A stretch of DNA of 64,000 nucleotides from a virus. Location of the stretch: positions 9,064 to 73,063 of the IMG/VR virus record IMGVR_UViG_3300013108_000622; one strand, 5' to 3'. This document shows positions 12,076 through 63,882 of this stretch, one piece after another. A program made the translations under genes and the position numbers. Position 1 is the first letter of the stretch, and the number at the start of each line of letters is the position of its first letter. The notes below the pieces were generated by a model, which was not told the origin of the DNA, did not search any database, and was given only the letters and a program-made list of their open reading frames with translations.

Positions 12076-15012
12076 ATGCCAGCAAATAAATTTAGATTTA
12101 TATCACCAGGTATTCAATTTCGCGAAATTGATGAATCAACAATACAAGAAACCCAAGGACCAATCGGCCCTGTTATTATCGGAAGATCGCAAAAAGGCCC
12201 AGGACTTGTTCCAACAAGGGTTGAAGACTATGACGAATTCGTAAGACTTTTTGGAGAACCACAACCAGGAACGGTATCAGGTGATATTTGGCGAAATGGT
12301 GGAGAGGGCCTCGCACCAACATATGGTGCTTATGCTGCTCAAGCATACCTAGAAAACAGCAATGGCTTAACTTTTGTTCGACTATTGGGAAGAGAGAATA
12401 AATACTCAACTACTGCCGGTAAAGCAGGTTGGTCCGTAGGATCAGGCTTCACGGGTAATGCTGGTGCAAAAGGCGGCGCATATGGACTCTTTCTAGTAGA
12501 GTCTGGCTCTACAAACGGCTCACAACAGGGCACATCCGTAAATACAACTGGTACACTCGCCGCCGTTTGGTATATGCAAGATGTGACCGCTGCTGCTTGG
12601 TTAAGACTATCCGGCGCACACGGTGGTACAAACCTCTCACCGACTGGTGCAAACGCCACCACACTTCTTAACGAAGAAGACAGCACATACACAATCGAGT
12701 ATGTCGAAGCGGGCGTAGTACAAAGAAAATATAACTTCGATTTTGATGAAGATAGTGGTAATTTTGCTAGAAAAGTTTTCAACACAAACCCAACGAAACT
12801 TAATTCTACATATTATGAAAATTCTGAAAACTTTTTTCTCGGAGAAACATTTGAAAGAAATGTAGCAGAAAAAGGATTGTCCGCACCAAGCTCCAAACAC
12901 ACTGTTTGGGGAGTGATGTTGGGCCTCCAGAACTCGTCTAATAAATATAACAATAACAAATCTTCCGCAGGCCCAGCTTCAACAAACTGGATTGTTTGCC
13001 AGGATCAGGGTGCATCTGGAAGTTTTGAACCATCGAAACTTACAAAACTCTTTAGGTTTAAATCTAGAGAGTTGGGAGACCATGCACAAAGAAACATAAA
13101 AATTTCTTTTGATGATATCCGTTACTCCCCAGATCCAGATTACAAATATGGCTCTTTTACCGTCCTTGTACGTGACATTAGAGATAGTGATAACTTTCCA
13201 AATGTTTTAGAGAGTTTTACAAATTGTAATTTAGATCCTGAGTCAACAAATTATGTTGCAAACAGGATTGGTAATGCTTTCTCAAGATGGGATGATGACG
13301 ACAAGAGATATCGCTACTATGGAGAGTATCCAAACCGTTCTCAATATATCACAATTGAGATGGCCGAAGATGTAGCTCTAGGTGCAGTTGCCCCAGAACT
13401 CTTGCCATTCGGCTATTTCGGTCCTCTACGACCTGTATCGTTTGGTGTAGCATCTGGTTCTATTTCACCTCTCAAACCTTGGATTGGGATGAGCGTTGGA
13501 AACAGCGACAATGCCAACACATCAGCAATGGTGTCAAACGCCTTGCCGGACACCTATGGTGGAATTAACTTTGTCTCTGGTGGACATGCCTTCGTGGGTG
13601 CTTTTGATTTCCCACGCTCTTATGTAAGACCAAACTCTACGATTGGAAATCTATCATCTAGAAATGATTGTTTTTGGGGTCTTGACACTTCAAGATCTGG
13701 CTCAAGTATTCGTTACTCTGAAGCTGTTGTAGACACACTAAGGGGTCTGCCAGACAATTATCGTTTGGGGGAAGATGGACCAACTCTGAGCCCGTCATCT
13801 GACGTGTCAGATTATCAATACATCTTCACCCTAGATGATGTAAGTCTTTACAGCTCCACAGACCATACAATTGGAAGCACATCTTCAGTAGATGCGTTTT
13901 ACTTGTCGGGCTCTAGAAAAGTCGGATATTCAGTATCTTCTACCGGATCCAATACTTACAAAAATACACTTGATGACGGATATAATAAGTTTACAGTGCC
14001 GATGTTTGGTGGGTTTAACGGCCTTGATATTACCGAGGTTGAACCTTTTAACAATAACTCAATTGGTTCGAACGCACAAGATTCGTATGAGTATAACTCA
14101 ATTATGAATGCGATTGATTCCGTAGCAGACCCAGAATCCGTAGATATGAACATCTTAAGCGTTCCAGGTGTTACAACCACTGGCTTGACTGATAGGGTTC
14201 TTGATGTAACAAGAGAGCGTGGTGATTCCTTGGGTGTTATTGATATTGTTGGTGGGTTCAAACCAAAGGCCGACCGCGCTGCGGCAACAACAAAAGATTA
14301 TGACGCATCTGCTCGCGGAAGTGTTGACACAACTGTGTCAAATATGAAGACACGACAAATCAATAATAGTTACGGAGCCGCTTATTATCCGTACATTAAA
14401 ATTAGAGATTCTAAATCTGGACGAGCATTCTTCGCGCCACCATCAATCGCGGCAATCGGAACATACTCTTTCTCGCAAACTTTGTCAGATGTCTGGTTCG
14501 CACCAGCTGGCTTTGTTCGCGGCGGTCTCTCTGACGGCGCAGCCGGTATTCCAGTAGTTGGAGTATCTGAGCGACTAAGCGCAAAAGAGCGTGATAAGTT
14601 GTATGAAGTTAATATTAACCCAATCGCATCGTTCCCATCAGAGGGTATCGTTGTCTTCGGCCAAAAAACACTTCAAGCGACACCAAGTGCATTGGATAGA
14701 GTAAATGTTAGAAGATTGTTGATTTATCTGAAGAAGGGTATTTCACTAATCTCCTCAACCATCTTATTCGATCCAAATATGGCAGTAACATGGGACAGAT
14801 TCAAGTCAGCAGTTGATCCATTCCTTGGAAATGTTAAATCAAGATTGGGGTTGATGGATTACAAGATTGTTCTTGACGAAACAACTACAACACCCGACTT
14901 AATTGACAGGAACATTATGTATGCCAAAATTTTCATTAAGCCAGCACGAGCAATAGAATACATTGCAATCGACTTCGTTGTTACCAACTCTGGAGCATCT
15001 TTTGCGGACTAA
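12076..15012 (+). CDS. tail sheath protein (gp18-like)
   Basis: FISPGIQFREID N-terminus; WFAPAGFVRG, INPI, GQKTLQ..SALDRVNVRRLL. Confidence 0.95.
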   Translation: MPANKFRFISPGIQFREIDESTIQETQGPIGPVIIGRSQKGPGLVPTRVEDYDEFVRLFGEPQPGTVSGDIWRNGGEGLAPTYGAYAAQAYLENSNGLTFVRLLGRENKYSTTAGKAGWSVGSGFTGNAGAKGGAYGLFLVESGSTNGSQQGTSVNTTGTLAAVWYMQDVTAAAWLRLSGAHGGTNLSPTGANATTLLNEEDSTYTIEYVEAGVVQRKYNFDFDEDSGNFARKVFNTNPTKLNSTYYENSENFFLGETFERNVAEKGLSAPSSKHTVWGVMLGLQNSSNKYNNNKSSAGPASTNWIVCQDQGASGSFEPSKLTKLFRFKSRELGDHAQRNIKISFDDIRYSPDPDYKYGSFTVLVRDIRDSDNFPNVLESFTNCNLDPESTNYVANRIGNAFSRWDDDDKRYRYYGEYPNRSQYITIEMAEDVALGAVAPELLPFGYFGPLRPVSFGVASGSISPLKPWIGMSVGNSDNANTSAMVSNALPDTYGGINFVSGGHAFVGAFDFPRSYVRPNSTIGNLSSRNDCFWGLDTSRSGSSIRYSEAVVDTLRGLPDNYRLGEDGPTLSPSSDVSDYQYIFTLDDVSLYSSTDHTIGSTSSVDAFYLSGSRKVGYSVSSTGSNTYKNTLDDGYNKFTVPMFGGFNGLDITEVEPFNNNSIGSNAQDSYEYNSIMNAIDSVADPESVDMNILSVPGVTTTGLTDRVLDVTRERGDSLGVIDIVGGFKPKADRAAATTKDYDASARGSVDTTVSNMKTRQINNSYGAAYYPYIKIRDSKSGRAFFAPPSIAAIGTYSFSQTLSDVWFAPAGFVRGGLSDGAAGIPVVGVSERLSAKERDKLYEVNINPIASFPSEGIVVFGQKTLQATPSALDRVNVRRLLIYLKKGISLISSTILFDPNMAVTWDRFKSAVDPFLGNVKSRLGLMDYKIVLDETTTTPDLIDRNIMYAKIFIKPARAIEYIAIDFVVTNSGASFAD

Positions 15013-15055
15013 ATTGAAATGAATAACTACTTAATTAAAGAAGAGGACATATAAC

Positions 15056-15619
15056 ATGGCAGCATTTTGGACAGACACAACAGTAGAACCGAAAAGGAAT
15101 TTTAAGTTTATCTTAAGCATCCCCGGTGGAACAGTCCCAGGAGGAATTCAAGAATTTTTAGTTCAAAAAGTGAGCAAACCTTCGATTGAAACCACTGCGA
15201 CTGAGCATACATTTTTGAATCATTATTTTTATTTTCCAGGCAAGAGTAAATGGTCAACAGTTCAAGCGACTTGCGTTGATTTAGTTCGACCTGCAAACGG
15301 AAATATGACTGCTACTATTATGAATATGATTGAGGCTTCCGGCTATTCTCGCCCAACTGCGATTGATTCTCAAAATCCAGCGAGTTTAAATACAATGTCA
15401 AAAGCGGGAGCGACCGCTGCGTTGGGGACTGTTAAAATCAAAACACTTGATTCTAAAGGCCAAACAGTTGAAGAATGGGTGTTGCATAACACTTTCGTTC
15501 AAAAAGCAGAGTGGAGCGAACTTGATTACGGTAATGAAGAACTGTCAACTTGCACACTAACACTTCAATACGATTTTGCCCACTTGGAAGTTGGTGGCAC
15601 TGAAATTCCACGTAGTTAA
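15056..15619 (+). CDS. tail tube protein (gp19-like)
   Basis: EPKRNFKF, WVLHNTF...LDY...LTLQYD; follows the sheath gene. Confidence 0.85.
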   Translation: MAAFWTDTTVEPKRNFKFILSIPGGTVPGGIQEFLVQKVSKPSIETTATEHTFLNHYFYFPGKSKWSTVQATCVDLVRPANGNMTATIMNMIEASGYSRPTAIDSQNPASLNTMSKAGATAALGTVKIKTLDSKGQTVEEWVLHNTFVQKAEWSELDYGNEELSTCTLTLQYDFAHLEVGGTEIPRS

Positions 15620-15679
15620 TTAAACAACGTAGATATTTATGTTATAATAAGATTATCTTTATATAGATAAGAGGTATCG

Positions 15680-16507
15680 ATGCCAAGAAATAATAAGGAC
15701 CGAATGGGGGTTCAAGACGAAAACCCACCTTTGGTCGCAGAAACGAATTCAATTTTAAATTTTGTAGTTCCTACTGAATTTGTAGAATTACCAACAAAGG
15801 GTCTATTTTATCCCCCGGAACATCCATTACATAATGTCGAAAGTGTTGAAATCAAACACATGACAGCGAAAGAGACAGATATTTTATCTTCAAAAACACT
15901 TCTTAAAAAAGGTGTTGCAATTGATAGAATGCTTCAAAGTATTATTGTAGATAGTTCCATCCAAGTAGATGATCTTTACACTGGAGATAAGAATGCACTC
16001 ATCATAGCCGCAAGAACAAGCGGTTTTGGTGAAGAATACAGTGCTTCAATAACTTGTACAAACTGCTCAACAGTTTTTGAGCAAGAATTTAACCTTACAG
16101 AAGTAAGTGTTAAGCAAGTAGAGGACGATATAAAGTTTACAGATACGGGGACATTCTTCATTGAACTCCCACAAACCAAAGTAAATGTGGAGTGTAAGCT
16201 TCTCACCACTGAAGATGAGAAGCGATTGCTTGCATTACTGGAGAAGAGACAGAAGTTAAAACTTCCAGAATCTTCTTTGACAGATCAATATAAATCATTT
16301 ATAGTTTCGCTAAATGGCGTTACTGAAAGGAGTACGGTAGAAGAGTTTATTGACTTGATGCCAGCTCGCGATGCAAATTACTTGAGAAAAGAGTATGATA
16401 GAGCAAGACCAGATGTGGACTTAACCCACGTTTGTGATTGTGATAATTGTGGCGCGACTGTTCAAGTAAATATTCCTTTTACCGCCAACTTTTTTTGGCC
16501 TCAGTAG
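15680..16507 (+). CDS. baseplate hub assembly / tail chaperone (gp26-like)
   Basis: VELPTKGLFY, MTAKETDIL, two CxxC, C-terminal NFFWP. Confidence 0.8.
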   Translation: MPRNNKDRMGVQDENPPLVAETNSILNFVVPTEFVELPTKGLFYPPEHPLHNVESVEIKHMTAKETDILSSKTLLKKGVAIDRMLQSIIVDSSIQVDDLYTGDKNALIIAARTSGFGEEYSASITCTNCSTVFEQEFNLTEVSVKQVEDDIKFTDTGTFFIELPQTKVNVECKLLTTEDEKRLLALLEKRQKLKLPESSLTDQYKSFIVSLNGVTERSTVEEFIDLMPARDANYLRKEYDRARPDVDLTHVCDCDNCGATVQVNIPFTANFFWPQ

Positions 16508-16679
16508 TAAATATGCTGAGTCTGTTTATGAGGAAATATTTTATCTTAAACAATATGGTGGGTGGAGCTTTCTAGAAGCCTATAATTTGCCAATACGTAT
16601 CCGACAATGGTGGTTGCGGAGACTTATTAAGCAGTTAGAGCAGGAACAGGAAGCAGTGAAAAATGCTCATAAAAAGTAA
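16494..16679 (+). CDS. start-less ORF (gp51-like hub chaperone), probable frameshift extension of the upstream gene
   Basis: FGLSSKYAESVYEEIFYLKQYGGWSFLEAYNLPIRIRQWWLRRL..; no in-frame ATG; begins on the T7 run 16490-16496. Confidence 0.65.
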   Translation, partial: FGLSSKYAESVYEEIFYLKQYGGWSFLEAYNLPIRIRQWWLRRLIKQLEQEQEAVKNAHKK

Positions 16680-16685
16680 AAGATT

Positions 16686-16765
16686 GGAGTGGTGGCCGAT
16701 TGGAAGGTGGTAGTTTTTTAAATTATTGAGCGAAAGCTTTGGGGGTTCGATTCCTTCACACTCCG
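16686..16765 (+). tRNA. tRNA-like RNA: Ser-type body with UUU anticodon (atypical or pseudo-tRNA)
   Basis: Cloverleaf: GGAGTGG/ACACTCC acceptor, GCC/GGT D stem, GTAGT/ATTAT anticodon stem, GAGC-GAAA-GCTT variable arm, GGGGG-TTCGATT-CCTTC T arm, G73, no CCA. Confidence 0.75.
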
Positions 16766-16774
16766 TTTTTTTTC

Positions 16775-16800
16775 AAACCCCTTTATGGGGTTTTTTATTT
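16775..16800 (+). terminator. intrinsic terminator
   Basis: AAACCCC-tttat-GGGGTTT followed by T-rich tract. Confidence 0.7.
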
Positions 16801-16848
16801 TAATTAATAACTATTTACTTTAAATAATGTAAGTGGAGATACCATATC

Positions 16849-17160
16849 ATGTCCGAAGAAACTCTTGAATTAAATTTAAACTCAAAAACCAATATAGAAG
16901 AAGATTTATCAGTAAACCTTGATAAGGCAAATACAATCAAAGAGGTTGTAAAAGGTGCGCTAGGCTTTTCATCCAAACCTGTGTCCATAAAGGGCACCCA
17001 AGACCAGGTTGAGTCCTTAAAAGAGCTGTTGTTTGTGGAAAAACAGTTGATTGAATCAGATGGTCTATCCACAGAACAGATAGAAGAAATAAAACAACTT
17101 TTAGAAGAAAAAGTGAGCAAATTTCAAGAACAAACAGAGATAGAGTGGCCTCTTAGGTAA
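16849..17160 (+). CDS. hypothetical tail-region protein
   Basis: ORF with GGAG SD and upstream late motif. Confidence 0.6.
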   Translation: MSEETLELNLNSKTNIEEDLSVNLDKANTIKEVVKGALGFSSKPVSIKGTQDQVESLKELLFVEKQLIESDGLSTEQIEEIKQLLEEKVSKFQEQTEIEWPLR

Positions 17161-17166
17161 ACTTAG

Positions 17167-19632
17167 ATGGCAACACCGGAACAAGACATCGCTGAACAAA
17201 CCAAGATTCTAAAACAAATCTTGGCACAGTTAAAAAAAGGTGGTGGTACATCTGATGCTTCCGGTGGCACAAAAAGTGTTGGTGATGTCGAGCAGGCATC
17301 TGAAGACGTTGAAAAATTAAACGAGAATCTTGACCAAACTGAACAAAAAACAGATCAAATTGCAGATAATTTTAATGAATTAACAACCTCAATCGGAGAT
17401 ACAGCAGATGCAGTCAGCGGACTTGTTTCTGCTATGGCACCAGGATTTGGGTCATTTACCCCAGCTAGTATTCGTGATGTTGCTCTTGAGATGGACGCAC
17501 TTGAGGCTGAGTTAAACAAAGTTACTGGAACTGCTGGAAAACTAACTCCATTAATGTATGAGTTGGCTAATGCTAATAGGGAATTTGGTATTACTACAGC
17601 AATGTCACAACAGGCATTGGCATCTTTACAAAACAATATGACCCAGTTTTCAAGACTGTCAGATATTAGCAAGACAAAGGTCGGAAACTTAGCAGTTCAG
17701 ATGGAAAAACTTGGAATTAGTTATGATCAAACCGCCCAACTGCAAGACACTCTTGTAAAGGGTATGAGTATGTCTACTGAGGCGGCTATCAATACTCAAA
17801 GGGAGATAGCAAAAGTCGCAGGCTCCTTGGGTGTTGCTCCAGAGCGTATGGCACGTGACTTTCAGGCAGCAGCACCTCGACTTGCAGCATATGGTTCTCA
17901 AGCAGTTGATGTGTTTAAAAAATTAGCCGCACAATCAAAAGCTACAGGAATTGAAATGAGCAAGTTGTTGGTCGTCACTGAACAATTTGACACTTTTGAA
18001 GGCGCAGCTAAAGCTACAGCACAACTAAATGCAGTGCTAGGCACCACTTTAAATAGTGTAGACCTCCTAACGGCATCAGAAGGTGATAGAATCGAAATGA
18101 TCAAGCGTTCAATCGCCGCCACCGGGCAATCATTTGATTCAATGGGAAGATTTGAACGAAAAGCGATTGCTGCAACAATAGGGATTTCAGACATGGATGA
18201 GGCAGCCAGATTGTTTGGGACATCCCTGGGAGAATTGGAAGATCTAGAGGATGCAGTTGATCCACAAGTTTTAGCTCAGCAAGATTTGCAAAAAATGATG
18301 GCCTTGAGTACCTCGATGCAAGATCAGATGCTAGCCAAATTCGAACAAATGGCACAAGTTTTGGGTGGACCAGTACGAGAAGTGTTGAGTGATTTGCAAC
18401 GATGGTTTTCAACAGAGGGATTACAGCAGGTCGAGAGTTTTTTCAAAACAGTTTCTGAAGCGATCACGAATGTTCATCAACAATGGACAAGTTTTACAAA
18501 TTCGTTCCCACTAATGTCTGGAATAATTGGCACTGTAACGAAATCTATTATTACTTTCGGAATCCTTGGGACTGCAATATTTGCCACCACAAAAGGTTTG
18601 GGCGCTTTGGTGGTGGGCGTAAAAGGCATCAGTGGCGCACTAGTAGCCTTTGGTAAAGACGGCAAAGACGCCGCCGATGGTGTCGGAGAAGCTCTTGAAA
18701 AAACGGCAGAATCAGGTGCAAATGCAACAAAATCCTTTGGGCAGGGATTAGCTGATGCAATTAAAAAAGTAGGTCAAGCTGCCACAACAAACGCCAAGGG
18801 ATTGCTTGCATTTGGTGGGGCTGTGGCTTTGATTGGTGTCGGCGTTGGCGCTGCGGCGCTTGGGATGGCACAATTTGTTTTATCATTTTCTAAATTGAAA
18901 GCGGATCAGATCGGTGGGCTCGTGGCAGGGCTTGTTTTGTTTACGGCTACAATGGTCTCGTTAGGTATGGTCATGTCTACGGTAGGCACAGCAGCAGCCC
19001 CGGCAATGTTGGCATTCGGAGCAGCATTCTTAATGATTGGTGGTGCCATCGCCGCAGCCGCTGCCGGTTTTAGTTTGTTGACTGAATCCATAGCTGTGTT
19101 ATGGGCAACAATAATGGCAAATGATACTTCTGCTTTTACAGAAATGGCAGTTGGAATAACTGCATTGGCAGCGTCTATTGGTACTTTAACAGCTTCTCTT
19201 AGTATGCTTGGGCTAACAGCAATTCCAGGCTTACTTGGGTTAGCTACTTTAGTCAGTAGTTTAACGGCAATGTCCAATTCTATAAAAGATATGGACACTT
19301 CCAAGATTGCGGCTTTAAGTGATATGACTCTCTCAATTAGTCAGACCACTAGTGAACAATACAACGGACTGGGCACAGCTATGAAGAATTTTGGGACAGC
19401 AATAACTTCTGCCAACAGTGCTGGTGTAACAATACTACAACAAGCATCACAGCTTGTAAAAGAGATGGCCGCCATGAATGCTGGCGCAACACAAAAATCT
19501 GCTGCACAAACAAATACCACTACCACCACAACACAGGCACAAAAACCAGTTGAAGTAGTAATTAATATAGATGGGACAGAGTTTGTAAGACAGGTCGTAA
19601 TCCCTGGGTTAGACCGAGTTTATTCTCAATAG
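17167..19632 (+). CDS. tail tape measure protein
   Basis: 821 aa Ala/Gly-rich helical protein with hydrophobic C-terminal repeats, after tube and chaperone genes. Confidence 0.85.
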   Translation: MATPEQDIAEQTKILKQILAQLKKGGGTSDASGGTKSVGDVEQASEDVEKLNENLDQTEQKTDQIADNFNELTTSIGDTADAVSGLVSAMAPGFGSFTPASIRDVALEMDALEAELNKVTGTAGKLTPLMYELANANREFGITTAMSQQALASLQNNMTQFSRLSDISKTKVGNLAVQMEKLGISYDQTAQLQDTLVKGMSMSTEAAINTQREIAKVAGSLGVAPERMARDFQAAAPRLAAYGSQAVDVFKKLAAQSKATGIEMSKLLVVTEQFDTFEGAAKATAQLNAVLGTTLNSVDLLTASEGDRIEMIKRSIAATGQSFDSMGRFERKAIAATIGISDMDEAARLFGTSLGELEDLEDAVDPQVLAQQDLQKMMALSTSMQDQMLAKFEQMAQVLGGPVREVLSDLQRWFSTEGLQQVESFFKTVSEAITNVHQQWTSFTNSFPLMSGIIGTVTKSIITFGILGTAIFATTKGLGALVVGVKGISGALVAFGKDGKDAADGVGEALEKTAESGANATKSFGQGLADAIKKVGQAATTNAKGLLAFGGAVALIGVGVGAAALGMAQFVLSFSKLKADQIGGLVAGLVLFTATMVSLGMVMSTVGTAAAPAMLAFGAAFLMIGGAIAAAAAGFSLLTESIAVLWATIMANDTSAFTEMAVGITALAASIGTLTASLSMLGLTAIPGLLGLATLVSSLTAMSNSIKDMDTSKIAALSDMTLSISQTTSEQYNGLGTAMKNFGTAITSANSAGVTILQQASQLVKEMAAMNAGATQKSAAQTNTTTTTTQAQKPVEVVINIDGTEFVRQVVIPGLDRVYSQ

Positions 19633-26942: not shown

Positions 26943-28145
26943 ATGTTATTTCAAATAATAGATAACAAACGAGCTTGTCCAAATATATATCTTAACAATA
27001 AGATTGTTTCCGATCCAGATTACAGTAATTTAACTGGAACTTGGTCTTATGATCCTATGTTTAATAAACATGATATTAAATATGCCTCTTTATATGCTGA
27101 AGGCGACAGCCTTGATGATTGCTGTCCCGATAACTTAATCCCAAAATGGGAAGAAGTCAAGCAAAAACACGTGGCTTTCTTTAAATCTTTTAATATTGCC
27201 AAGGTAAATTTTCAAGATTATTGTCTATACGATCTTCTTCCTGAGTCTTTTGTGAGTGAGTATTTTGAGACAAAAAATAAAATAACACAACATGTTTTTG
27301 ATAGCTATGAAATCCCGACAAATTATGATTTTTTGGTGGAGTTGTCTGATCTGGTGGCATCGATTCAGAGCCAGAGATTGATCATAGACACAAGTTTGAT
27401 GGATGAGAACATACACGAATTAAGGGTTAGAAAGATAAAAGAAAAATTAATGAACATTGAGCCAGTTGTTTCTTATAATGTGTTTGGAACAATTACTGGC
27501 AGATTAACAACCAAGAAAAATTCATTCCCTCTTTTGACCTTGGATAAAAATTATAGAAATATAATACAACCCAATAATGATTGGTTTATTGAGTTAGACT
27601 TTAATGCTGCTGAATTGCGCTGTCTTTTGGCACTCAACGAACAACCCCAACCTTGCGAGGATATACATAAGTGGCACGGGAAAATATTAAATAAATTATA
27701 CGACCACAGGATGGAAAGAGATGAAATTAAACGTAAGATTTTTAGCTGGCTTTATGGACCAGCGAATGTTTCTCTTGGTATCCCAGAGATTGAAAGGTTT
27801 TATGATAAAGAAAAGGTAATTGAAAAATATTGGGATGGTGAAGAAGTGGTAAACCCATTTGGAAGGCGCATAAAGGCGGATCATTTTCATTCACTTAATG
27901 CAATAATCCAAAGCACAACCTCCGACACTTTTTTACGTCGTGCAATTGCGGTAAATAAACTCCTGAATGGTAGAAAGTCCTTTACAATGGGGCTCATTCA
28001 TGATAGTATGGTAATTGATTTTGATCGTAATGACAAAGATCTTCTAGAAGAATTAATGGTTGAGTTCGGGAATACCGATTTGGGTATTTTTAAAGTTAAT
28101 GCAAGTTTGGGAACAAACTTTGGTAATATGAGGAAGTTTAGATGA
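26943..28145 (+). CDS. compact family A DNA polymerase
   Basis: TITGRL, DFNAAELR (motif A), K..FSWLYG (motif B), NAIIQST.SD, IHDS (motif C). Confidence 0.8.
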   Translation: MLFQIIDNKRACPNIYLNNKIVSDPDYSNLTGTWSYDPMFNKHDIKYASLYAEGDSLDDCCPDNLIPKWEEVKQKHVAFFKSFNIAKVNFQDYCLYDLLPESFVSEYFETKNKITQHVFDSYEIPTNYDFLVELSDLVASIQSQRLIIDTSLMDENIHELRVRKIKEKLMNIEPVVSYNVFGTITGRLTTKKNSFPLLTLDKNYRNIIQPNNDWFIELDFNAAELRCLLALNEQPQPCEDIHKWHGKILNKLYDHRMERDEIKRKIFSWLYGPANVSLGIPEIERFYDKEKVIEKYWDGEEVVNPFGRRIKADHFHSLNAIIQSTTSDTFLRRAIAVNKLLNGRKSFTMGLIHDSMVIDFDRNDKDLLEELMVEFGNTDLGIFKVNASLGTNFGNMRKFR

Positions 28146-45906: not shown

Positions 45907-48900
45907 ATGATTAAGTCTGGTATTCCGTTCGTCGGTCTTCATGCACACTCAACTGCGGGTTCTCCGTTCGATGCTATCGGATACCCTCAACAACACATGG
46001 ACTTTGCTTATGAAAATGGCTGTGATGCCTTGGCACTGACCGATCACGGAAACTGTAATGGTCTAGCATATCAGGTTCTTCATGCAAAGTCAATGGAAAA
46101 AGCTGGCAAGAACTTTAAACCAATCTATGGGTGTGAAGCCTATTTCATCCCATCACTCAAAGAATGGGAAGAAGTCTACAACCAAAGCAAAACAGACAAG
46201 AAATCTAAGAAAGACGCAACAAGTGGTGGATTCACAGTAGAAGACGAATCAGAAACCAAATCAGTAAAAGATATACTTAATCGTCGTCGTCATCTAGTGT
46301 TGCTAGCCCAAAATCAAACAGGTCTTAATAATATCTTTAAGTTAATTTCACAATCATATAAGCCAGGAAACTTCTATCGCTTCCCAAGAATTGATTATGA
46401 TCTGCTCCGAACACATAGTGAGGGTATCATCGCTTCCTCTGCCTGTTTAGGTGGCGTTTATGCAGGAGATCTGTGGGAAAATATGGATAATGGAGATGAG
46501 GCTGTCCTAAATGCTATGCGTAAAACTACTGAAAATATGCAAAGTATTCTGGGTGATCGGTGGTATGCAGAACTTCAATGGTTTAAGCACCCCACACAAA
46601 TGAAGCTGAACACCTTTATCGTTCAAATTGCTAAAGAATATGGCCTTGAATTAATCTCAACTGCTGATAGTCACTACTTTAATCCTGAAGTGTGGAAGTC
46701 TCGCGAGCTATACAAACGATTCAGACCAGGCGCAACCGCATTCTTTGGTGAGATGGCTGAAGATTTAGATGAGTATGGAATGGAACTGTATCCCAAGAAT
46801 GGTGATCAAATGTTTGCGTCTTATAAAAAGTATTCATCCGAACTCGGCGTGAAATTCGATGATGATTTGATTAAAGACTCGATTGCTCGGACTCACCATA
46901 TTGCACATAACCGCATCGAAAAATTCTATCCAGACAATACAGTGCGACTACCCTCCTTTGTAATACCTGATAATATGACAGACGACGAGGCACTAAGTGT
47001 AGCTTCGGTTAATAATTTGCAATCCAAAGAATTGACCGACCCTGTTTATGTGGAGCGACTTGAACATGAACTCCAAGTAATCAAAGACCGTGGTTTTAGT
47101 CGTTATTTCCTAACAATGAAAGCCATCGCAGATAAGGCAACTTCGATGCAAATTACTGGCCCATCACGCGGTTCAGCCGGTGGCTCTTTGGTTGCATATG
47201 TTCTTGGAATTACTCAGGTAGATCCTATTAAGTATGGTTTGCTTTTTTCTCGTTTCTTGAGATCTGATGCGAAAGACTATCCAGATATTGATTATGATGT
47301 GTCAGATCCTATGACACTTAAAGAGTCTCTAGTGAAGGAGTGGGGTGAAGATAACGTAGTTCCTATTTCAAACTGGAACACCCTCCAGTTACGCTCTTTG
47401 ATTAAAGATATATCAAAATTTTATGACATTCCATACCAAGAGGTAAACGTCGTAACCAAGAAGATGGTGTTTGAGGCTATGGCCCCTGCTAAACGCGATC
47501 ACGGTATAAAGGCTGGCGTGTATGAGCCAACTTTTGAAGAATTAATGAAGTATAGTACAAGCCTTCAAGAATTCCTAAAGAAATACCCACAAGTCGAGCC
47601 ACACGTAAGAACCTTGAAAGGTCAGGTGCGTTCTTGTTCACGTCATGCTGGCGGCCTGGTTGTTGGCGAAGATCTCAACAAGTATATGCCCTTAATTTAT
47701 TCCGGTGGTGTTCGTCAAACTCCCTGGACTGAGGGTCAGAATGTTAGACACCTTGAACCAATGGGGTTTATTAAGTTTGATATTCTTGGACTAAGCACCC
47801 TAAGAATGATTGAGGATGCAATCTCAAGAATCATTCAGAAGCAAACCGGTACAACGCCAAAATTTAGTGAGGTTAAAAAGTTTTATGATCAGAACCTCCA
47901 CCCAGACAAGATGGATTTTGATAATCAATCCATATATCGAAATATATTTCACAAAGGAAAGTGGGCAGGTGTTTTTCAGTTTACCGAATCTGGAGCACAA
48001 TCGTTTTGTAAGCGAGCAAAGCCAACTTCTTTGATTGATATTGCAGCTATTACATCAATTTTTCGCCCCGGACCGTTGAGCGCCAAGGTTGATAAAGATT
48101 ATGTAAATGCTAAGAATTCGCCGGGAGATATTAAATATAACCACCCAATCATTCAAGAGGTTACTGAAGAAACATATGGCTTTCTAATTTTTCAAGAGCA
48201 GATTGCTTTACTAGCTCACCGCTTGGGTAAGAATATCTCACTCGACGAAGGTAATCTTTTACGTAAACTATTAACTAAAAAAGGAACAGGCAAAGGTGCA
48301 AAAGATAAGCTTAAAATCTATAACAAATTCGTGGCAGGATGTGCAGAGAAAGGAATTAGCACGGTCGAGGCAGAGAATCTTTGGAAAACTTTTGAGTATT
48401 TTAGTGGTTATGGCTTTAATAAGTCCCATGCTGTCGGTTATAGTATTCTATCTTACCAGTGTGCTTGGCTACTAAACTATCACCCAGCAGAATGGTTAGC
48501 TGCGTTTCTAAACAAGGAGCCTGAAAGCCGCAAAGAAAAAGCTATTAATGTTGTCAAGAATTTGGGATACAACATTCAGGAAGTAAACATTAATCTATCC
48601 GGTCGCAACTGGGAAGTCTCAGACTCCGGTGAACTAGTTCAGCCCCTTACCTCGATTAAAGGTCTGGGCGATAAGGCTATGGATCAAATCTTGGAACACC
48701 GACCCTTTAATTCAATTGAAGATTTGCTGTTCAATGAGGAGATAAGTTATTCTAAACTTAATAAAAAATGTTTAGATGTTTTAGTGCGTTCTGGTGCTTG
48801 TGATACTATTGTTGATGATCGCTTTAAGCATTGTAGACACCTTTGGCTTTCAACCGTAAATAATCGTCCTAAAAACAGGAAAAAGCTGGAAGAAAATATT

Positions 48901-49296
48901 AAATTAAACACTGCTGAGCCTGATTTTTCTGAGGAAGAAAAGATTGAAAATGTTGTAAGTTTAACTGGTATATTTCCATTTGATCTAGTTTTAGACAAGA
49001 AGGTGAGAGAGAGGCTAGAGCAGGCCAAGGTTCCACCGATTGCGGATTATGATAAAGATTTACAATTATCTTGGTTTATTCCTAGGGAAATCATACCAAA
49101 AAAGACTAGGAACGGCAAAACTTTCTGGATTTTGAATGTAATTGATGATACATGTCAAACCACTAAAATAATGTGCTGGAATATTTGGGGAGACACACGT
49201 GTTTTTCTCAACAGACCATACATTGCGAAACTTGAACATAGCGATCAATGGGGTTTTTCAACCCGCAAAGTTGGTGGCTTTAAACTAATAGGATAA
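45907..49296 (+). CDS. dnaE: DNA polymerase III alpha subunit
   Basis: PHP domain (HAHS, ALTDHG, GCEAY), RGSAGGSLV, PDIDYD, KFDILGL, YGFNKSH. Confidence 0.95.
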   Translation: MIKSGIPFVGLHAHSTAGSPFDAIGYPQQHMDFAYENGCDALALTDHGNCNGLAYQVLHAKSMEKAGKNFKPIYGCEAYFIPSLKEWEEVYNQSKTDKKSKKDATSGGFTVEDESETKSVKDILNRRRHLVLLAQNQTGLNNIFKLISQSYKPGNFYRFPRIDYDLLRTHSEGIIASSACLGGVYAGDLWENMDNGDEAVLNAMRKTTENMQSILGDRWYAELQWFKHPTQMKLNTFIVQIAKEYGLELISTADSHYFNPEVWKSRELYKRFRPGATAFFGEMAEDLDEYGMELYPKNGDQMFASYKKYSSELGVKFDDDLIKDSIARTHHIAHNRIEKFYPDNTVRLPSFVIPDNMTDDEALSVASVNNLQSKELTDPVYVERLEHELQVIKDRGFSRYFLTMKAIADKATSMQITGPSRGSAGGSLVAYVLGITQVDPIKYGLLFSRFLRSDAKDYPDIDYDVSDPMTLKESLVKEWGEDNVVPISNWNTLQLRSLIKDISKFYDIPYQEVNVVTKKMVFEAMAPAKRDHGIKAGVYEPTFEELMKYSTSLQEFLKKYPQVEPHVRTLKGQVRSCSRHAGGLVVGEDLNKYMPLIYSGGVRQTPWTEGQNVRHLEPMGFIKFDILGLSTLRMIEDAISRIIQKQTGTTPKFSEVKKFYDQNLHPDKMDFDNQSIYRNIFHKGKWAGVFQFTESGAQSFCKRAKPTSLIDIAAITSIFRPGPLSAKVDKDYVNAKNSPGDIKYNHPIIQEVTEETYGFLIFQEQIALLAHRLGKNISLDEGNLLRKLLTKKGTGKGAKDKLKIYNKFVAGCAEKGISTVEAENLWKTFEYFSGYGFNKSHAVGYSILSYQCAWLLNYHPAEWLAAFLNKEPESRKEKAINVVKNLGYNIQEVNINLSGRNWEVSDSGELVQPLTSIKGLGDKAMDQILEHRPFNSIEDLLFNEEISYSKLNKKCLDVLVRSGACDTIVDDRFKHCRHLWLSTVNNRPKNRKKLEENIKLNTAEPDFSEEEKIENVVSLTGIFPFDLVLDKKVRERLEQAKVPPIADYDKDLQLSWFIPREIIPKKTRNGKTFWILNVIDDTCQTTKIMCWNIWGDTRVFLNRPYIAKLEHSDQWGFSTRKVGGFKLIG

Positions 49297-57114: not shown

Positions 57115-57474
57115 ATGGACACGCCACCAAACATATCATCATCCCAACACGAGATGAGGGTGTATATATTAGATTACTTTAGAAAGAAAAAGCTCATAAC
57201 TTTTCAAGAGAATGTGATATATTCAGAAAAAGTTTTTAAAATAAATGCTGTCCTGAAGTGGTGCTTTTCCCAGATACAAAATAAAAAAATGAGCTTTGCC
57301 CTTTGGGAAAAAAATAAAAAATTTTTAGCACAATATGTTGCAGGTATCGTTGACATTGAGTGGGATGATAACTCCTTTAATGTAATTGAGATAAAAAATG
57401 ACAAAGAACCAAGAACCAAAAGAAAAACCATCAGCCGAACCAAACGTCGAAAAAGAGGAGATGACGCTGAGTGA
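57115..57474 (+). CDS. hypothetical protein
   Basis: 119 aa ORF. Confidence 0.5.
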   Translation: MDTPPNISSSQHEMRVYILDYFRKKKLITFQENVIYSEKVFKINAVLKWCFSQIQNKKMSFALWEKNKKFLAQYVAGIVDIEWDDNSFNVIEIKNDKEPRTKRKTISRTKRRKRGDDAE

Positions 57475-58093
57475 GTTGAACGAGATTTTAGCCGCATCAA
57501 AAGCCGCCAGTGACCCAGAGTTAAAATGTAGGACCGTCACTATGTACGGCGAGGTTAATGAAGAATCTTGCAAACTAATTGTTTCTTCGTTGCATTATTA
57601 TAGAGCCGTAGGAACTATCGAGGAGTTCGTGGAGTCAGATGAAGAACCAGAGTCTACGGTACAAATTGTTTCTAGTTGTCCAGACATTGATCTAATCATT
57701 TCCACAGAAGGTGGTAGTGTGCCTGATATGTTCTCTGCCTATGATTCCATCAGAGAGGTTTCTAAGTCTTGTGATATATCCACTTTTGGCGTCGGGAGAG
57801 TTATGTCCGCTGGTGTCCTTATGTTGGCCGCAGGTACGAAAGGAAAACGACGAGCAGGAAGAAACTGCCGCCTTATGTTACATGCAATTACTGGTGGTCA
57901 TTTTGGTTCGTTAAAAGAGTTGGAAGTGGATATAAGAGAAGTAAAATGGTATGAAAATCAGTATGTTAAGGCTTTGTCAGCAGAAACGAACTTAACTGAA
58001 AAGAAAATAAAATCTATTTTTCGAAGAAAGACAGATACTTATTTCGATGCCGACCAAGCCTTAGAGTGGGGAATAATAGATGAGATTGTTTGA
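57398..58093 (+). CDS. clpP: second ClpP-like protease
   Basis: ISTEGGSV, VMSAG, LMLH, DTYFDADQALEWGIIDEI. Confidence 0.82.
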   Translation: MTKNQEPKEKPSAEPNVEKEEMTLSELNEILAASKAASDPELKCRTVTMYGEVNEESCKLIVSSLHYYRAVGTIEEFVESDEEPESTVQIVSSCPDIDLIISTEGGSVPDMFSAYDSIREVSKSCDISTFGVGRVMSAGVLMLAAGTKGKRRAGRNCRLMLHAITGGHFGSLKELEVDIREVKWYENQYVKALSAETNLTEKKIKSIFRRKTDTYFDADQALEWGIIDEIV

Positions 58094-58859
58094 TAAGGCC
58101 ATAAATTTTTTAATAAAGGCAAAATTAGATCCATCATCCCAGCGACGTGATCAATTAGACCGCGAGGCTTCGGAGGAGTGGGCAAAGCCGAGTGGTGATC
58201 AAAAAAGTATAATCTGCAATAATAAACACTATGCTATTGAGTGGGACAATGTGGTAACATTCAAACAACCTGATGGGCTTGTGTTGCCAAAAAATTGTTA
58301 TAAAAAACAGAAAAATCCACGCACACCAAATATGTTTGTCGCCCATTGGGATGTTTGCCTTTCATCTAAAAGTTGCTTTAATATATTAAAAAAACGTAAA
58401 CTCTCGGTTCATTTCCTCATAGATAACGATGGAACAATTTTTCAATTAATGGATTGCAATGACATTGGCTACCATGCGGGCAACCGAGCTGTTAACAATA
58501 ACAGCATTGGGGTGGAAATATCCAATGCTTATTATCCAAAATATCAAAGTATATATAAGAAGCGTGGCTTTGGCCCGAGACCGGTTTGGAAAGATGCGAA
58601 AGTTCACGGAAAAACACTAGAGCCTTTCCTCGGCTTCTATCCAGCTCAAGAAGAGGCTTTTATAGCACTTTCTAAAGCATTGAATAGTGTTTATGGAATC
58701 CCATTACAAACACCACAAGTTGGTGGTGTAACCTCCACAACTGTTGTCCCTAGTGTGAAACGTGGAGTGTTTAAGGGTGTTGTGAATCATTTTCATGTTA
58801 CAAATCGTAAGATCGATTGTGCTGGATTTGATATTGATAAATTTTTAAAAAATATTTGA
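58080..58859 (+). CDS. N-acetylmuramoyl-L-alanine amidase (Amidase_2), probable endolysin
   Basis: VAHW, SVHFLIDNDG.IFQ, YHAG..N..SIGVEI, H...KIDC. Confidence 0.85.
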   Translation: MRLFDKAINFLIKAKLDPSSQRRDQLDREASEEWAKPSGDQKSIICNNKHYAIEWDNVVTFKQPDGLVLPKNCYKKQKNPRTPNMFVAHWDVCLSSKSCFNILKKRKLSVHFLIDNDGTIFQLMDCNDIGYHAGNRAVNNNSIGVEISNAYYPKYQSIYKKRGFGPRPVWKDAKVHGKTLEPFLGFYPAQEEAFIALSKALNSVYGIPLQTPQVGGVTSTTVVPSVKRGVFKGVVNHFHVTNRKIDCAGFDIDKFLKNI

Positions 58860-58885
58860 CAAATCCAAATAACTTATGTTAGAAT
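58856..58885 (+). promoter_or_regulatory. sigma70-type promoter for groEL
   Basis: TTGACA-N18-TAGAAT with TGn. Confidence 0.6.
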
Positions 58886-58911
58886 AAGTAATCTCTAACA
58901 AAGGAACAAAA

Positions 58912-62910: not shown

Positions 62911-63882
62911 ATGAAAATATTAATGGAAAGCTGGCGAGGATATCTTAATGAGGGACAGCAAACCCCAAAGGCAATTTTTATGGCTGGTGCCCCAGGTTCG
63001 GGCAAGTCCACAGTTATTGATAAACTGGGGTTAGATACACTAGAGATAATTAATCCTGATGAGTTTTATGAGCCAGCATTGGAAAAGTCAGGTCTCGGAA
63101 AGAACATAGCTAAACTAAAGGAAGACTTTTTACAAGCTAGGCAAGACTTTAAAGAACTTTTGAGCGAGATTTTGAATCTTGTTGAGCCCGAAGATGGGTG
63201 GAATCACGAAGTTTTAGGCGAACTATATGATTCTGCCATGGAGGAAGCCAACGACGATCAGACTTTTATTCACAACCTCAAAACTGTACGTAGCAAATAT
63301 GATGCCAACCGCGCAAAGATAGTTCAGCAAGCAAAATTATTTAGTCAAGCTAGAAACTCAGCAAAGGAAAAGCAACAAGCGGCAGCAGCCGAAGGCCAAA
63401 GTTTCGTGGTTGATGGAACAGGCGGACGATTCGGTGTCATTCGCAACCAAAAGCAAGCACTCGAAGAACAAGGGTATGATGTTGGAATGATCTTTGTGGA
63501 CATTCCATTGGAAGATTCTCTTGCACGTCAACAAAAACGCCTTGAAGCTGGTGGTCGCGCACTAGATCCTAAAGCTATTGAAAAATCTTGGAACGCGGTT
63601 AATAAAAACTTAGAACCTTATAACGAGCTGTTTGGAGACAATCTCTTTCGCATTGTTGCGACTGATGAGGAGATGGATGCAAGCATTGCCGAAGAAGGTG
63701 AACGGCTTTCATCTTTCTTGGGAGGTTTGGAAGAAGATTTTCAGTCTGAACTAAAACCACGACTCCAAAAACAGATGAAGCGCCTTTTGCGTCACGGTGG
63801 AAATAAAGATAGTGGACCATTTGACGAGGAAGCTCCGATTGATTATCGCGGCTCTGCTCCTCCGGGCGCACCTGGAGGTTGA
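62911..63882 (+). CDS. zeta-toxin-like P-loop kinase with N-terminal tag
   Basis: AIFMAGAPGSGKS, INPD, FVVDGTG, R...R..GGR. Confidence 0.7.
   Translation: MKILMESWRGYLNEGQQTPKAIFMAGAPGSGKSTVIDKLGLDTLEIINPDEFYEPALEKSGLGKNIAKLKEDFLQARQDFKELLSEILNLVEPEDGWNHEVLGELYDSAMEEANDDQTFIHNLKTVRSKYDANRAKIVQQAKLFSQARNSAKEKQQAAAAEGQSFVVDGTGGRFGVIRNQKQALEEQGYDVGMIFVDIPLEDSLARQQKRLEAGGRALDPKAIEKSWNAVNKNLEPYNELFGDNLFRIVATDEEMDASIAEEGERLSSFLGGLEEDFQSELKPRLQKQMKRLLRHGGNKDSGPFDEEAPIDYRGSAPPGAPGG

What the first reader, a model, noticed from the sequence alone, without database searches (positions are those of the whole stretch)
16686..16765. Chimeric tRNA: serine identity elements with a lysine UUU anticodon loop
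Seen: a full cloverleaf with G1-C72, G2-C71, A3-U70, G73 and a long variable arm, but anticodon loop UUUUUAA (UUU at 16717-16719). All stems are retained through six G-U pairs, with one mismatch (G7-A66), and it has a terminator just downstream within the late tail operon. Established: SerRS ignores the anticodon, tRNA-Lys has a short variable arm, and tRNA-Lys(UUU) is the target of anticodon nucleases such as PrrC and PARIS AriB. Inference: a Lys-to-Ser mistranslating tRNA, a decoy for anticodon nucleases, or a decaying tRNA-Ser.
Basis: partly seen in the sequence, partly recalled or inferred. Interest (0 to 1): 0.8.

Follow-up and report, generated by a model that had tools for sequence, protein, structure and literature searches.

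The report
Serine-type phage tRNA with lysine anticodon
An uncultured marine phage carries one odd transfer RNA gene whose body looks like a serine tRNA but whose anticodon reads lysine codons; it is real, but it looks more like a one-off leftover than a purpose-built mistranslation device.

Summary
Window 16686-16765 (+) is a tRNA gene by ARAGORN and Rfam (40.8 bits, cut-off 29). It has a long variable arm, G1:C72, G2:C71, A3:U70, C11:G24, G73, six G.U pairs, one G7.A66 mismatch and anticodon UUU, and a terminator lies 10 nt downstream. Anticodon-masked profiles of phage tRNAs put its body with tRNA-Ser (36.2 bits; next best 18.4).

It is a singleton. 0 of 80 related phage loci carry a tRNA at this place, and no other 7/5 Ser-type UUU tRNA turned up in IMG/VR pattern scans. 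The phage reads AAA/AAG as Lys (K at 24 of 31 conserved columns, S at 0), so charging with Ser would be mistranslation, not recoding.

The anticodon arm is abnormal: it has no G-C pair (1 of 143 comparison tRNAs shares this), and U32/A38 and U33/A37 can close the loop. The variable arm and D loop are shorter than in all or most phage tRNA-Ser. About-97% relatives in three other runs keep the loop but carry a 67-nt longer allele inside the gene.

Best reading (about 0.45): a Ser-derived tRNA that lost its Ser anticodon and is weakly used or unused. Rivals are an active Lys-to-Ser missense tRNA, a nuclease-resistant Lys-codon reader, a decoy or processing element, and an assembly collapse.

Side finding: large phages hold many long-arm tRNAs with Asn or Lys anticodons that keep the cognate discriminator.

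The parts
16686..16765 (+). Class II (long variable arm) tRNA gene, Ser-type body, anticodon UUU, no encoded CCA
   Evidence: ARAGORN; Rfam RF00005 40.8 bits; Ser profile 36.2 bits against 18.4 or less for the others
16710..16726 (+). Anticodon arm: 5-bp stem with no G-C pair (two G.U, three A-U), loop UUUUUAA, anticodon 16717-16719, A39 at 16722
   Evidence: Sequence. A G-C-free stem occurs in 1 of 143 comparison tRNAs. In close relatives 16710 G>A and 16712 A>G both keep the pairing
16727..16740 (+). Variable region, 14 nt: 4-bp stem (one G.U) with a GAAA loop
   Evidence: Shorter than all 22 phage tRNA-Ser compared, which have 16-22 nt
16775..16793 (+). Intrinsic-terminator-like hairpin followed by a T run, 10 nt after the discriminator
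15680..16507 (+). Upstream gene: T4 gp26-like baseplate hub protein (PF12322, phrog_150)
16470..16679 (+). Open +1 frame that extends the hub gene past a T7 run; its stop codon lies 6 nt before the tRNA
   Evidence: The extension is present in the +1 frame in 79 of 80 related loci
16849..17160 (+). First ORF after the terminator (103 aa, no family match)
17167..19632 (+). 821-aa ORF with no family match. Its position after sheath, tube and hub suggests a tape-measure-like protein (inference only)

Best explanation
This is a genuine tRNA gene of serine (class II) ancestry that entered the intergenic gap between the hub-gene extension and the operon terminator in this phage lineage only. Its acceptor, D, variable and T arms still make a proper tRNA shape. 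Its anticodon arm has become an almost pure A/U hairpin that shows UUU where a Ser anticodon should be.

Most likely it is a by-product: a tRNA-Ser gene that lost its anticodon and is now decoded weakly or not at all. It would be transcribed with the late tail operon and probably still cut out by RNase P and 3' trimming. If it is charged at all, SerRS is the most probable enzyme, so any use on the ribosome would put Ser at AAA/AAG at a low level.

Shown: the gene, its shape, its Ser-type body, its uniqueness, and the Lys meaning of AAA/AAG in this phage. Inferred: transcription, processing, charging, and weak or absent decoding.
For: - Ser ancestry: Ser profile 36.2 bits against 18.4 or less for the other groups. 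The leave-one-out control was 20 of 22 correct for Ser, and 1 of 165 non-Ser tRNAs was called Ser. The acceptor/discriminator signature is found in 16 of 23 Ser. The U31-A39 closing pair is Ser-like.
- Abnormal anticodon arm: it has 0 G-C pairs, as in 1 of 143 comparison tRNAs, and the U32 + A38 combination is rare in Lys tRNAs. The minimum-energy fold closes the loop to 3 nt.
- Reduced Ser features: variable region 14 nt against 16-22 in 22 Ser, and a D region 3 nt shorter than the Ser mode. The Rfam score is 40.8 bits, against 53.5-70.2 for five tRNAs of related phages. There is a G7.A66 mismatch.
- Singleton: 0 of 80 related loci have a tRNA within 4 kb. Four scans with pieces of this tRNA found nothing. 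The Ser-signature UUU pattern found only one real tRNA in IMG/VR, and that one is of the allo-tRNA-like type.
- Cost of Ser insertion: AAA is the most used codon (1328 in 80 ORFs) and Lys the commonest residue. AAA/AAG align with K at 24 of 31 conserved columns and with S at 0.
- Close relatives in 3 of 3 DNA runs laid carry a 67-nt longer allele inside the gene.
Against: - The tRNA shape looks maintained. 23 of 24 stem positions pair. There are six G.U pairs and no A.C pair. All universal tertiary bases are intact.
- The only two substitutions seen in the roughly 97% relatives both keep the anticodon stem paired. This fits continued selection on structure, or a very recent arrival.
- UUU reads the phage's most used codon, which is what codon-supply models of phage tRNAs predict.
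- The gene sits in a transcribed place with its own terminator.
- No expression, processing or charging data exist. The one RNA run laid covered only 16300-16502.
Confidence: 0.45

Rival explanations
1. Active missense tRNA. It is processed, charged by the host SerRS, which does not read the anticodon, and used on the ribosome. Late phage and host proteins then receive Ser at a fraction of AAA/AAG codons.
For: It has the Ser-type identity set: long arm, G73, G1:C72, G2:C71, A3:U70, C11:G24. [quoted passage not shown] U33, U36-A37 and a 7-nt loop are present. The structure is kept in relatives.
Against: AAA is the top codon and means Lys in this phage, so the cost falls on the phage's own late proteins. 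The variable arm and D loop are shorter than in phage tRNA-Ser, and the same review stresses tertiary shape for E. coli SerRS. The anticodon stem has no G-C pair. The tRNA is a singleton.
Confidence: 0.15
2. Back-up reader of Lys codons that escapes tRNA-Lys-cutting defence nucleases (PrrC-like or PARIS AriB-like). LysRS charges it at least partly through the UUU anticodon, so translation of the AAA-rich phage genes continues when the host tRNA-Lys(UUU) is destroyed.
For: Lys identity rests on the anticodon triplet plus A73 (PMC9976931), and the triplet is present here. AAA is the most used codon. Position 39 is A (16722). In E. coli tRNA-Lys the U39-to-A change abolishes AriB cleavage, and the resistant T5 tRNA-Lys has A39 (PMC12409363 section 22). 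Other phages do carry long-arm tRNAs with Lys anticodons.
Against: The discriminator is G73, and replacing A73 lowers Lys acceptance. None of the 18 long-arm and 46 short phage Lys-anticodon tRNAs parsed has G73. The body scores 17.7 bits (long Lys) and 7.4 bits (short Lys) against 36.2 for Ser. G2:C71 favours SerRS. No RNA ligase was seen among the ORFs scanned, and there is only a weak polynucleotide-kinase-like hit. The host and its defences are unknown.
Confidence: 0.15
3. tRNA-shaped RNA with no decoding role: an uncharged decoy for anticodon nucleases, or an RNase P/RNase Z processing signal that ends and stabilises the upstream late transcript.
For: The acceptor, T and D parts are kept while the anticodon arm has drifted to 15 of 17 A/U. 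The gene lies 6 nt after a stop codon and 10 nt before a terminator. No promoter-like site lies within 380 nt upstream.
Against: Nothing was tested. 0 of 80 relatives need such an element at this place. The anticodon stem pairing is still kept, which a pure processing signal would not require.
Confidence: 0.15
4. The intact cloverleaf is an assembly product. The real genome carries the longer allele seen in relatives, and the assembler skipped a loop between two copies of a 30-nt repeat (16715-16744).
For: Contigs of X3, X4 and X7 break or branch exactly at 16744/16715. Contigs of X3 and X7 carry 37 other letters between two copies of 16715-16744.
Against: The window differs from those relatives at 16710, 16712 and a 2-nt T-run length, so it is another strain. 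X3, from a study other than that of the possible source runs, also holds a piece 16715-16797 identical to the window. A 30-nt repeat is normally resolved by read-length k-mers (general knowledge, not tested).
Confidence: 0.1

Closest known systems
allo-tRNAs (Mukai et al., Nucleic Acids Res 2017, PMC5389517; abstract and passages read)
   Same: Bacterial and phage tRNAs with a long variable arm and G73 or U73, taken as SerRS substrates, that carry non-Ser anticodons (35 codons; a Lys anticodon seen once). They are proposed missense or nonsense suppressors or regulatory RNAs.
   Different: Allo-tRNAs have an 8/4 or 9/3 acceptor/T configuration and a tRNA-Sec-like long D stem with a tetraloop. 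The window tRNA has 7/5, a 3-bp D stem and an ordinary GG-containing D loop. L147 750-836, found here, looks like the allo type; the window tRNA does not.
Natural and engineered tRNA-Ser anticodon variants (Candida tRNA-Ser(CAG); yeast tRNA-Ser with Pro anticodon; nematode nev-tRNAs)
   Same: A Ser or class II body with a non-cognate anticodon, where the synthetase ignores the anticodon. The review PMC9976931 states that such variants stay serylated and mistranslate.
   Different: Those cases are eukaryotic and have shown charging or use. Here nothing is shown, the arm is shorter and the anticodon stem weaker. The Candida and nev-tRNA details are recalled, apart from a search listing and a reference entry.
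Phage T5 tRNA-Lys(UUU) that neutralises PARIS/AriB (PMC11464382, passages; PMC12409363, abstract and sections 22-23)
   Same: A phage-encoded reader of AAA with A at position 39, the change that blocks AriB cleavage in E. coli tRNA-Lys.
   Different: The T5 tRNA is described as a tRNA-Lys isoacceptor that rescues translation. That it has the ordinary short-arm shape and A73 is my recollection and comes from no call. The window tRNA has a Ser body and G73.
Long-variable-arm tRNAs with Asn or Lys anticodons in large phages
   Same: Class II shape, a UGGCCGA-type D arm and an anticodon of a class I tRNA. Eight have UUU.
   Different: They keep the discriminator of the anticodon's own amino acid: Asn G73 in 38 of 39; Lys A73 or U73 in 18 of 18 and never G73. 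They mostly lack G2:C71. The window tRNA has the Ser signature and scores 17.7-18.4 bits on their profiles.

Membership tests
Bacterial-type tRNA-Ser | Long variable arm (class II) | tested here: met
   14-nt variable region with a 4-bp stem, though shorter than all 22 phage tRNA-Ser compared (16-22 nt)
Bacterial-type tRNA-Ser | G73 with G1:C72, G2:C71 and A3:U70 (or U3:A70), and C11:G24 | tested here: met
   Sequence. The full signature is in 16 of 23 phage Ser and in 7 of 506 other parsed phage tRNAs. The C11:G24 rule is recalled
Bacterial-type tRNA-Ser | Whole-body sequence likeness to tRNA-Ser with the anticodon ignored | tested here: met
   Ser profile 36.2 bits, next best 18.4; leave-one-out control
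Bacterial-type tRNA-Ser | Ser anticodon (NGA or GCU) | tested here: not met
   UUU at 16717-16719
Bacterial-type tRNA-Ser | Charged by SerRS | not testable with these tools
   Needs an aminoacylation assay
tRNA-Lys | UUU or CUU anticodon | tested here: met
tRNA-Lys | Discriminator A73 | tested here: not met
   G at 16765. Of 46 short phage Lys tRNAs, 45 have A73; of 18 long ones, 10 have A and 8 have U
tRNA-Lys | Short (4-5 nt) variable loop and Lys-type body | tested here: not met
   14-nt arm; short-Lys profile 7.4 bits
allo-tRNA (Mukai 2017) | 8/4 or 9/3 acceptor/T branch and a Sec-like long D stem with tetraloop | tested here: not met
   7-bp acceptor, 5-bp T stem, 3-bp D stem with an 8-nt loop. 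ARAGORN's extra U.G on top would give 8/5, not 8/4
   G73 with UUU and G2:C71 present. None of the 18 long Lys tRNAs has G73, and none of the 13 with UUU has the Ser signature
Anticodon-nuclease-resistant phage tRNA | Escapes cleavage and still delivers the cognate amino acid | not testable with these tools
   Only A39 can be read from the sequence

The most novel reading that the evidence does not exclude
The tRNA is a working part of the phage's answer to tRNA-cutting host defences. It would be a class II-bodied reader of AAA/AAG that nucleases aimed at tRNA-Lys(UUU) do not recognise (A39, foreign body, extra arm), keeping ribosomes moving on the AAA-rich late genes.

It would belong with a wider, apparently undescribed habit of large phages: giving Asn(GUU), Lys(UUU/CUU) and, in some loci, Thr(UGU) tRNAs a long variable arm. 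[quoted passage not shown]
Probability: 0.15. Interest if true: 0.8.

Novelty: new member of a known kind. Interest (0 to 1): 0.35.

Why it matters
If the tRNA were active, it would be a natural phage-borne case of deliberate Lys-to-Ser mistranslation, or a new way to dodge tRNA-Lys nucleases. Both would be of real interest for genetic-code fidelity and for phage-defence biology. As it stands, it is a clean example of how a tRNA-Ser gene can drift into a non-cognate anticodon because SerRS does not check it, and it warns that anticodon-based callers will name such genes tRNA-Lys.

The more valuable lead is the side finding. Dozens of large-phage tRNAs with Asn or Lys anticodons, and in some loci Thr, His, Trp or initiator-like Met, carry a serine-like long arm yet keep their own discriminator base. 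That can be tested with existing defence nucleases and synthetases.

Tried and rejected
- Shifted anticodon readings (UUA, UAA; read). The 5-bp stem does not form in those registers, so they are rejected.
- AAA reassigned to Ser. Rejected: K at 16 of 20 conserved AAA columns and 8 of 11 AAG columns, S at 0.
- Recombinant with a Lys anticodon arm. Not supported: the U31-A39 closing pair is Ser-like, while Lys arms mostly have A31-U39.
- tRNA-Sec or allo-tRNA shape. Rejected on the D arm and the 7/5 branch.
- Link to the neighbouring frameshift. The slippery run is T7 (UUU codons), which a UUU anticodon does not read. Rejected by reasoning.
- attP-type tRNA fragment. Rejected: it is a whole tRNA, it sits in the tail operon, and no integrase was seen among the ORFs scanned.
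- Near matches. Megablast of 15000-19000 against phages gave nothing. Blastn of the tRNA gave at best a Bacillus phage tRNA-Ser 3' half, 82% over 45 nt, E 0.02.
- Scans with pieces of the tRNA. Viral contigs and metagenome contigs all gave 0. Records very near the window may be left out of these collections.
- Genome-contig scan for class II UUU tRNAs. Two hits: one a chance match (L094, no tRNA) and one real (L095).
- Host. Not identified. The nearest cultured relatives by hub protein are Flavobacterium and Microcystis phages at 33-35% identity.
- RNA run X20. It covered only 16300-16502, so it says nothing about expression of the tRNA.
- The 37 extra letters in the relatives' allele. They could not be folded or searched, because they are not part of the window or of a stored locus. 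I only read them by eye, without a clear result.
- Paper supplements were closed. Mukai's supplementary tRNA lists and the AriB paper's figure S3 may bear on how rare Ser-type UUU tRNAs are and on the cleavage rule.
- Not used: structure prediction, fold search, complex prediction, the protein database searches, the RNA model tools and the second permitted metagenome scan.

Full report
**What is there.** The window is most of a 73,063-base virus record with 38.5% G+C. It carries myovirus genes:
- head-tail adaptor, tail sheath, tail tube and a T4 gp26-like baseplate hub;
- major head protein, DnaB-like helicase, ribonucleotide reductase, DNA polymerase, a UvsX-like recombinase and a GroEL-like chaperonin;
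- a gp32-like protein.

A related 71-kb record is rated 39% complete, so this record is probably a fragment of a larger genome.

Between the stop codon at 16677-16679 and a terminator-like hairpin at 16775-16793 lies the only tRNA of the record. ARAGORN places it at 16685-16766 with anticodon ttt. Rfam RF00005 places it at 16686-16765 with 40.8 bits against a cut-off of 29, and E 3.4e-05 for the whole-window search.

**Checking the observation.**
- G1:C72, G2:C71, A3:U70 and G73;
- a 3-bp D stem with C11:G24;
- a 14-nt variable region with a 4-bp stem and a GAAA loop;
- the loop UUUUUAA with UUU at 16717-16719;
- six G.U pairs (one in the D stem, two in the anticodon stem, one in the variable stem, two in the T stem);
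- one mismatch, G7.A66.

The universal tertiary bases are all present. The cloverleaf is the minimum-energy fold, but only modestly better than shuffles (z -1.88), and the predicted fold closes the anticodon loop to three bases through U32-A38 and U33-A37.

**Is the body really Ser-type?** tRNAscan-SE is not available, so I built a stand-in.
- From 59 viral loci and five loci of relatives I collected 653 ARAGORN tRNAs.
- I parsed 529 distinct ones for acceptor and discriminator bases.
- I built anticodon-masked profile HMMs for seven groups.

The window tRNA scores as follows:

| Profile | Bits |
|---|---|
| Ser | 36.2 |
| long-arm Asn | 18.4 |
| long-arm Lys | 17.7 |
| Tyr | 14.7 |
| Leu | 14.4 |
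| short Asn | 11.8 |
| short Lys | 7.4 |

In leave-one-out, 20 of 22 Ser were called Ser and only 1 of 165 non-Ser tRNAs was. The signature G1:C72 + G2:C71 + A3:U70 + G73 occurs in 16 of 23 phage tRNA-Ser. It occurs in none of 13 long-arm and none of 24 short tRNAs with UUU.

The closing pair U31-A39 is also the Ser habit, whereas Lys arms mostly have A31-U39. So this is a Ser-derived body and not a Lys tRNA with an added arm.

One caveat applies. The comparison set comes from loci chosen by a pattern that favours the long-arm Asn and Lys groups, and the Ser set is small.

**Is it like anything nearby?** No.
- The hub protein found 240 related stretches in IMG/VR. In the best 80 (43-67% identity), 0 carry a tRNA within about 4 kb.
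- In the closest one (L001), the gap between the hub extension and the next gene is 90 nt with no tRNA.
- Related large records carry tRNAs elsewhere: Ile-UAU, Arg-UCU, Leu-UAA and Ala-UGC, at 53.5-70.2 bits.
- Pieces of the window tRNA found nothing in viral or metagenome contigs.
- A pattern for class II spacing + UUU loop + U70-C71-C72-G73 found six places in IMG/VR. Only one is a tRNA (L147), and it has the long D stem and tetraloop of the allo-tRNA type.

**What the phage expects at AAA.** AAA is the most used codon (1328 in 80 ORFs) and Lys the commonest residue at 8.28%. I compared seven structural proteins with the 80 related loci at conserved columns. AAA sits on K in 16 of 20 and on S in 0. 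AAG sits on K in 8 of 11 and on S in 0. There is therefore no reassignment. A Ser-charged UUU tRNA would mistranslate the phage's own late proteins.

**Signs of weakness.**
- The anticodon stem has no G-C pair. Among 143 phage tRNAs compared (44 short Lys, 18 long Lys, 22 Ser, 39 long Asn), one shares this.
- The arm is 15 of 17 A/U, while the rest of the tRNA is about 56% G+C.
- The variable region (14 nt) is shorter than in all 22 phage Ser (16-22 nt), and the D region is 3 nt shorter than the Ser mode.
- The review PMC9976931 (passages read) says that E. coli SerRS recognises tertiary shape. It adds that the D-loop subdomains and the number of paired and unpaired bases in the arm matter for class II tRNAs. 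Serylation is therefore likely but not assured.
- The same review gives Lys identity as the anticodon triplet plus A73, with lower activity for any other base at 73. Some lysylation cannot be excluded either.

**Close relatives in nature.** Twenty runs from 15 studies hold part of the stretch. I laid contigs of X3, X4, X7 and one RNA run.
- A strain of about 97% identity covers the tRNA.
- Inside the gene the listed differences are 16710 G>A and 16712 A>G. These turn G27.U43 into A-U and A29-U41 into G.U, so both keep the stem.
- No difference is listed in the anticodon loop, though 14 less well supported differences were not shown.
- In X3 and X7 one contig runs ...16744, then 37 other letters, then 16715..., and X4 contigs stop at the same place. 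That is a 67-nt longer allele with 16715-16744 present twice.
- X3 also holds a piece 16715-16797 identical to the window.

I could not fold or search the extra letters, since they belong to no stored sequence. I cannot say whether the longer allele still makes a tRNA. These are contigs of depth 2-7, so the point needs raw reads. The RNA run covers only 16300-16502.

**Explanation.** The simplest account is a tRNA-Ser gene that landed in this intergenic gap in one lineage and then lost its Ser anticodon. From GCU that takes two changes; from UGA it takes two in the anticodon plus C32 to U. It has been left with a feeble anticodon arm.

Because SerRS ignores the anticodon, any residual use would place Ser at Lys codons. 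The large cost of that in an AAA-rich phage would itself favour weakening the arm or breaking the gene, and both are seen. I put this at about 0.45.

The kept stems and tertiary bases are the main argument against it. They leave room for four rivals:
- an active missense tRNA (0.15);
- a nuclease-resistant Lys-codon reader (0.15);
- a decoy or processing element (0.15);
- an assembly collapse of the 30-nt repeat (0.10).

For the nuclease idea, one sequence fact is worth noting. Position 39 is A, and in E. coli tRNA-Lys the U39-to-A change abolishes AriB cleavage, as in the resistant T5 tRNA-Lys (PMC12409363 section 22).

**Comparison with what is known.** The closest described kind is the allo-tRNAs (PMC5389517). 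These have a long arm, G73 or U73 and non-Ser anticodons, with a Lys anticodon seen once. They are defined by 8/4 or 9/3 branches and a Sec-like D arm, which this tRNA lacks. Functionally it resembles natural and engineered tRNA-Ser anticodon variants. It is not a member of the long-arm Asn/Lys group described next.

**Side finding.** The pattern UGGCCGA + N-U-U loop + class II spacing + T loop found 59 matches in 57 IMG/VR loci: GUU 46, UUU 8, CUU 5, AUU 0. With U-N-U the counts were UUU 8, UGU 1, UCU 1, UAU 0. The same UUU pattern in 185,579 bacterial and archaeal genomes found one real case: an adjacent long-arm Lys(CUU) + Lys(UUU) pair in a tRNA array of Thalassospira xianhensis.

These tRNAs keep the discriminator of their own amino acid:
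- Asn: G73 in 38 of 39;
- Lys: A73 in 10 and U73 in 8 of 18;
- bystanders in the same loci: long His C73 in 2 of 2, Trp G73 in 3 of 3, Met A73 in 6 of 6 (C1.A72 in 4), Thr U73 in 6 of 8.

They mostly lack G2:C71, which is present in 5 of 39 Asn.

Many sit beside ordinary short copies. In L087 this holds for Thr-UGU, Gly-UCC, Lys-UUU and Gln-UUG.

[quoted passage not shown] The overlap is a lead, not a result, because my patterns were aimed at N-U-U and U-N-U anticodons. Eight literature searches found no paper describing these tRNAs. The library lacks most subscription journals, and supplements were closed.

**Verdict.** This is an ordinary kind of accident in an unusual place, of modest interest in itself (0.35), with a more interesting family found in passing.

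Noticed in passing
window 15680-16679; loci L001-L080: The T4 gp26-like hub gene ends just after a T7 run, and a conserved 56-codon extension follows in the +1 frame. The extension is found in the +1 frame in 79 of 80 related loci, and 71 of those 79 have a T7 run at the junction. A 7-bp hairpin lies at 16500-16520, right after the run. This looks like a conserved programmed +1 (or -2) frameshift, or transcriptional slippage.
   Followed up: partly
L086-L093, L096-L144, L151, L152 (IMG/VR); L095 5414-5596 (Thalassospira xianhensis): Large phages carry many tRNAs with a Ser-like long variable arm but with Asn(GUU), Lys(UUU/CUU) and, in some loci, Thr, Met, Gln, His or Trp anticodons. These keep the discriminator of their own amino acid and often sit beside ordinary short copies. 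Asn, Lys and Thr are also the reported targets of PARIS AriB. I found no paper on this.
   Followed up: partly
window 16715-16744 and 16766: Relatives of about 97% identity in runs X3, X4 and X7 carry a 67-nt longer allele inside the tRNA gene: 37 other letters between two copies of 16715-16744. They also have a T run 2 nt shorter after the discriminator. The meaning is unknown, and the extra letters could not be analysed with the tools.
   Followed up: partly
L147 750-836: A second viral tRNA with a UUU anticodon, a long arm, G1:C72, G2:C71, A3:U70 and G73-CCA, but with a long D stem and tetraloop, so it is allo-tRNA-like.
   Followed up: no
window 62911-63882: A 323-aa P-loop kinase (Zeta_toxin and AAA_33 domains) with a weak polynucleotide-kinase PHROG match, E 4.7e-07. 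It might be an RNA-repair kinase. No RNA ligase was seen among the ORFs scanned.
   Followed up: partly
window 57398-60480: The phage encodes a ClpP-like protease (57398-58093), an amidase (58080-58859) and a full-length GroEL-like chaperonin (58912-60480, phrog_5725, E 2.5e-137).
   Followed up: no
window 26943-28145 and 45907-49296: There are two DNA-polymerase-like genes: a 400-aa ORF with a partial family A match, placed directly after the late genes, and a 1129-aa polymerase.
   Followed up: no
L145, L148: Viral contigs hold stretches with a tRNA-like T arm, a TCCG end and, in L148, CCA, that ARAGORN does not call as tRNA genes. I take them to be integration-site remnants of a Ser-type tRNA; that is inference only.
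   Followed up: no
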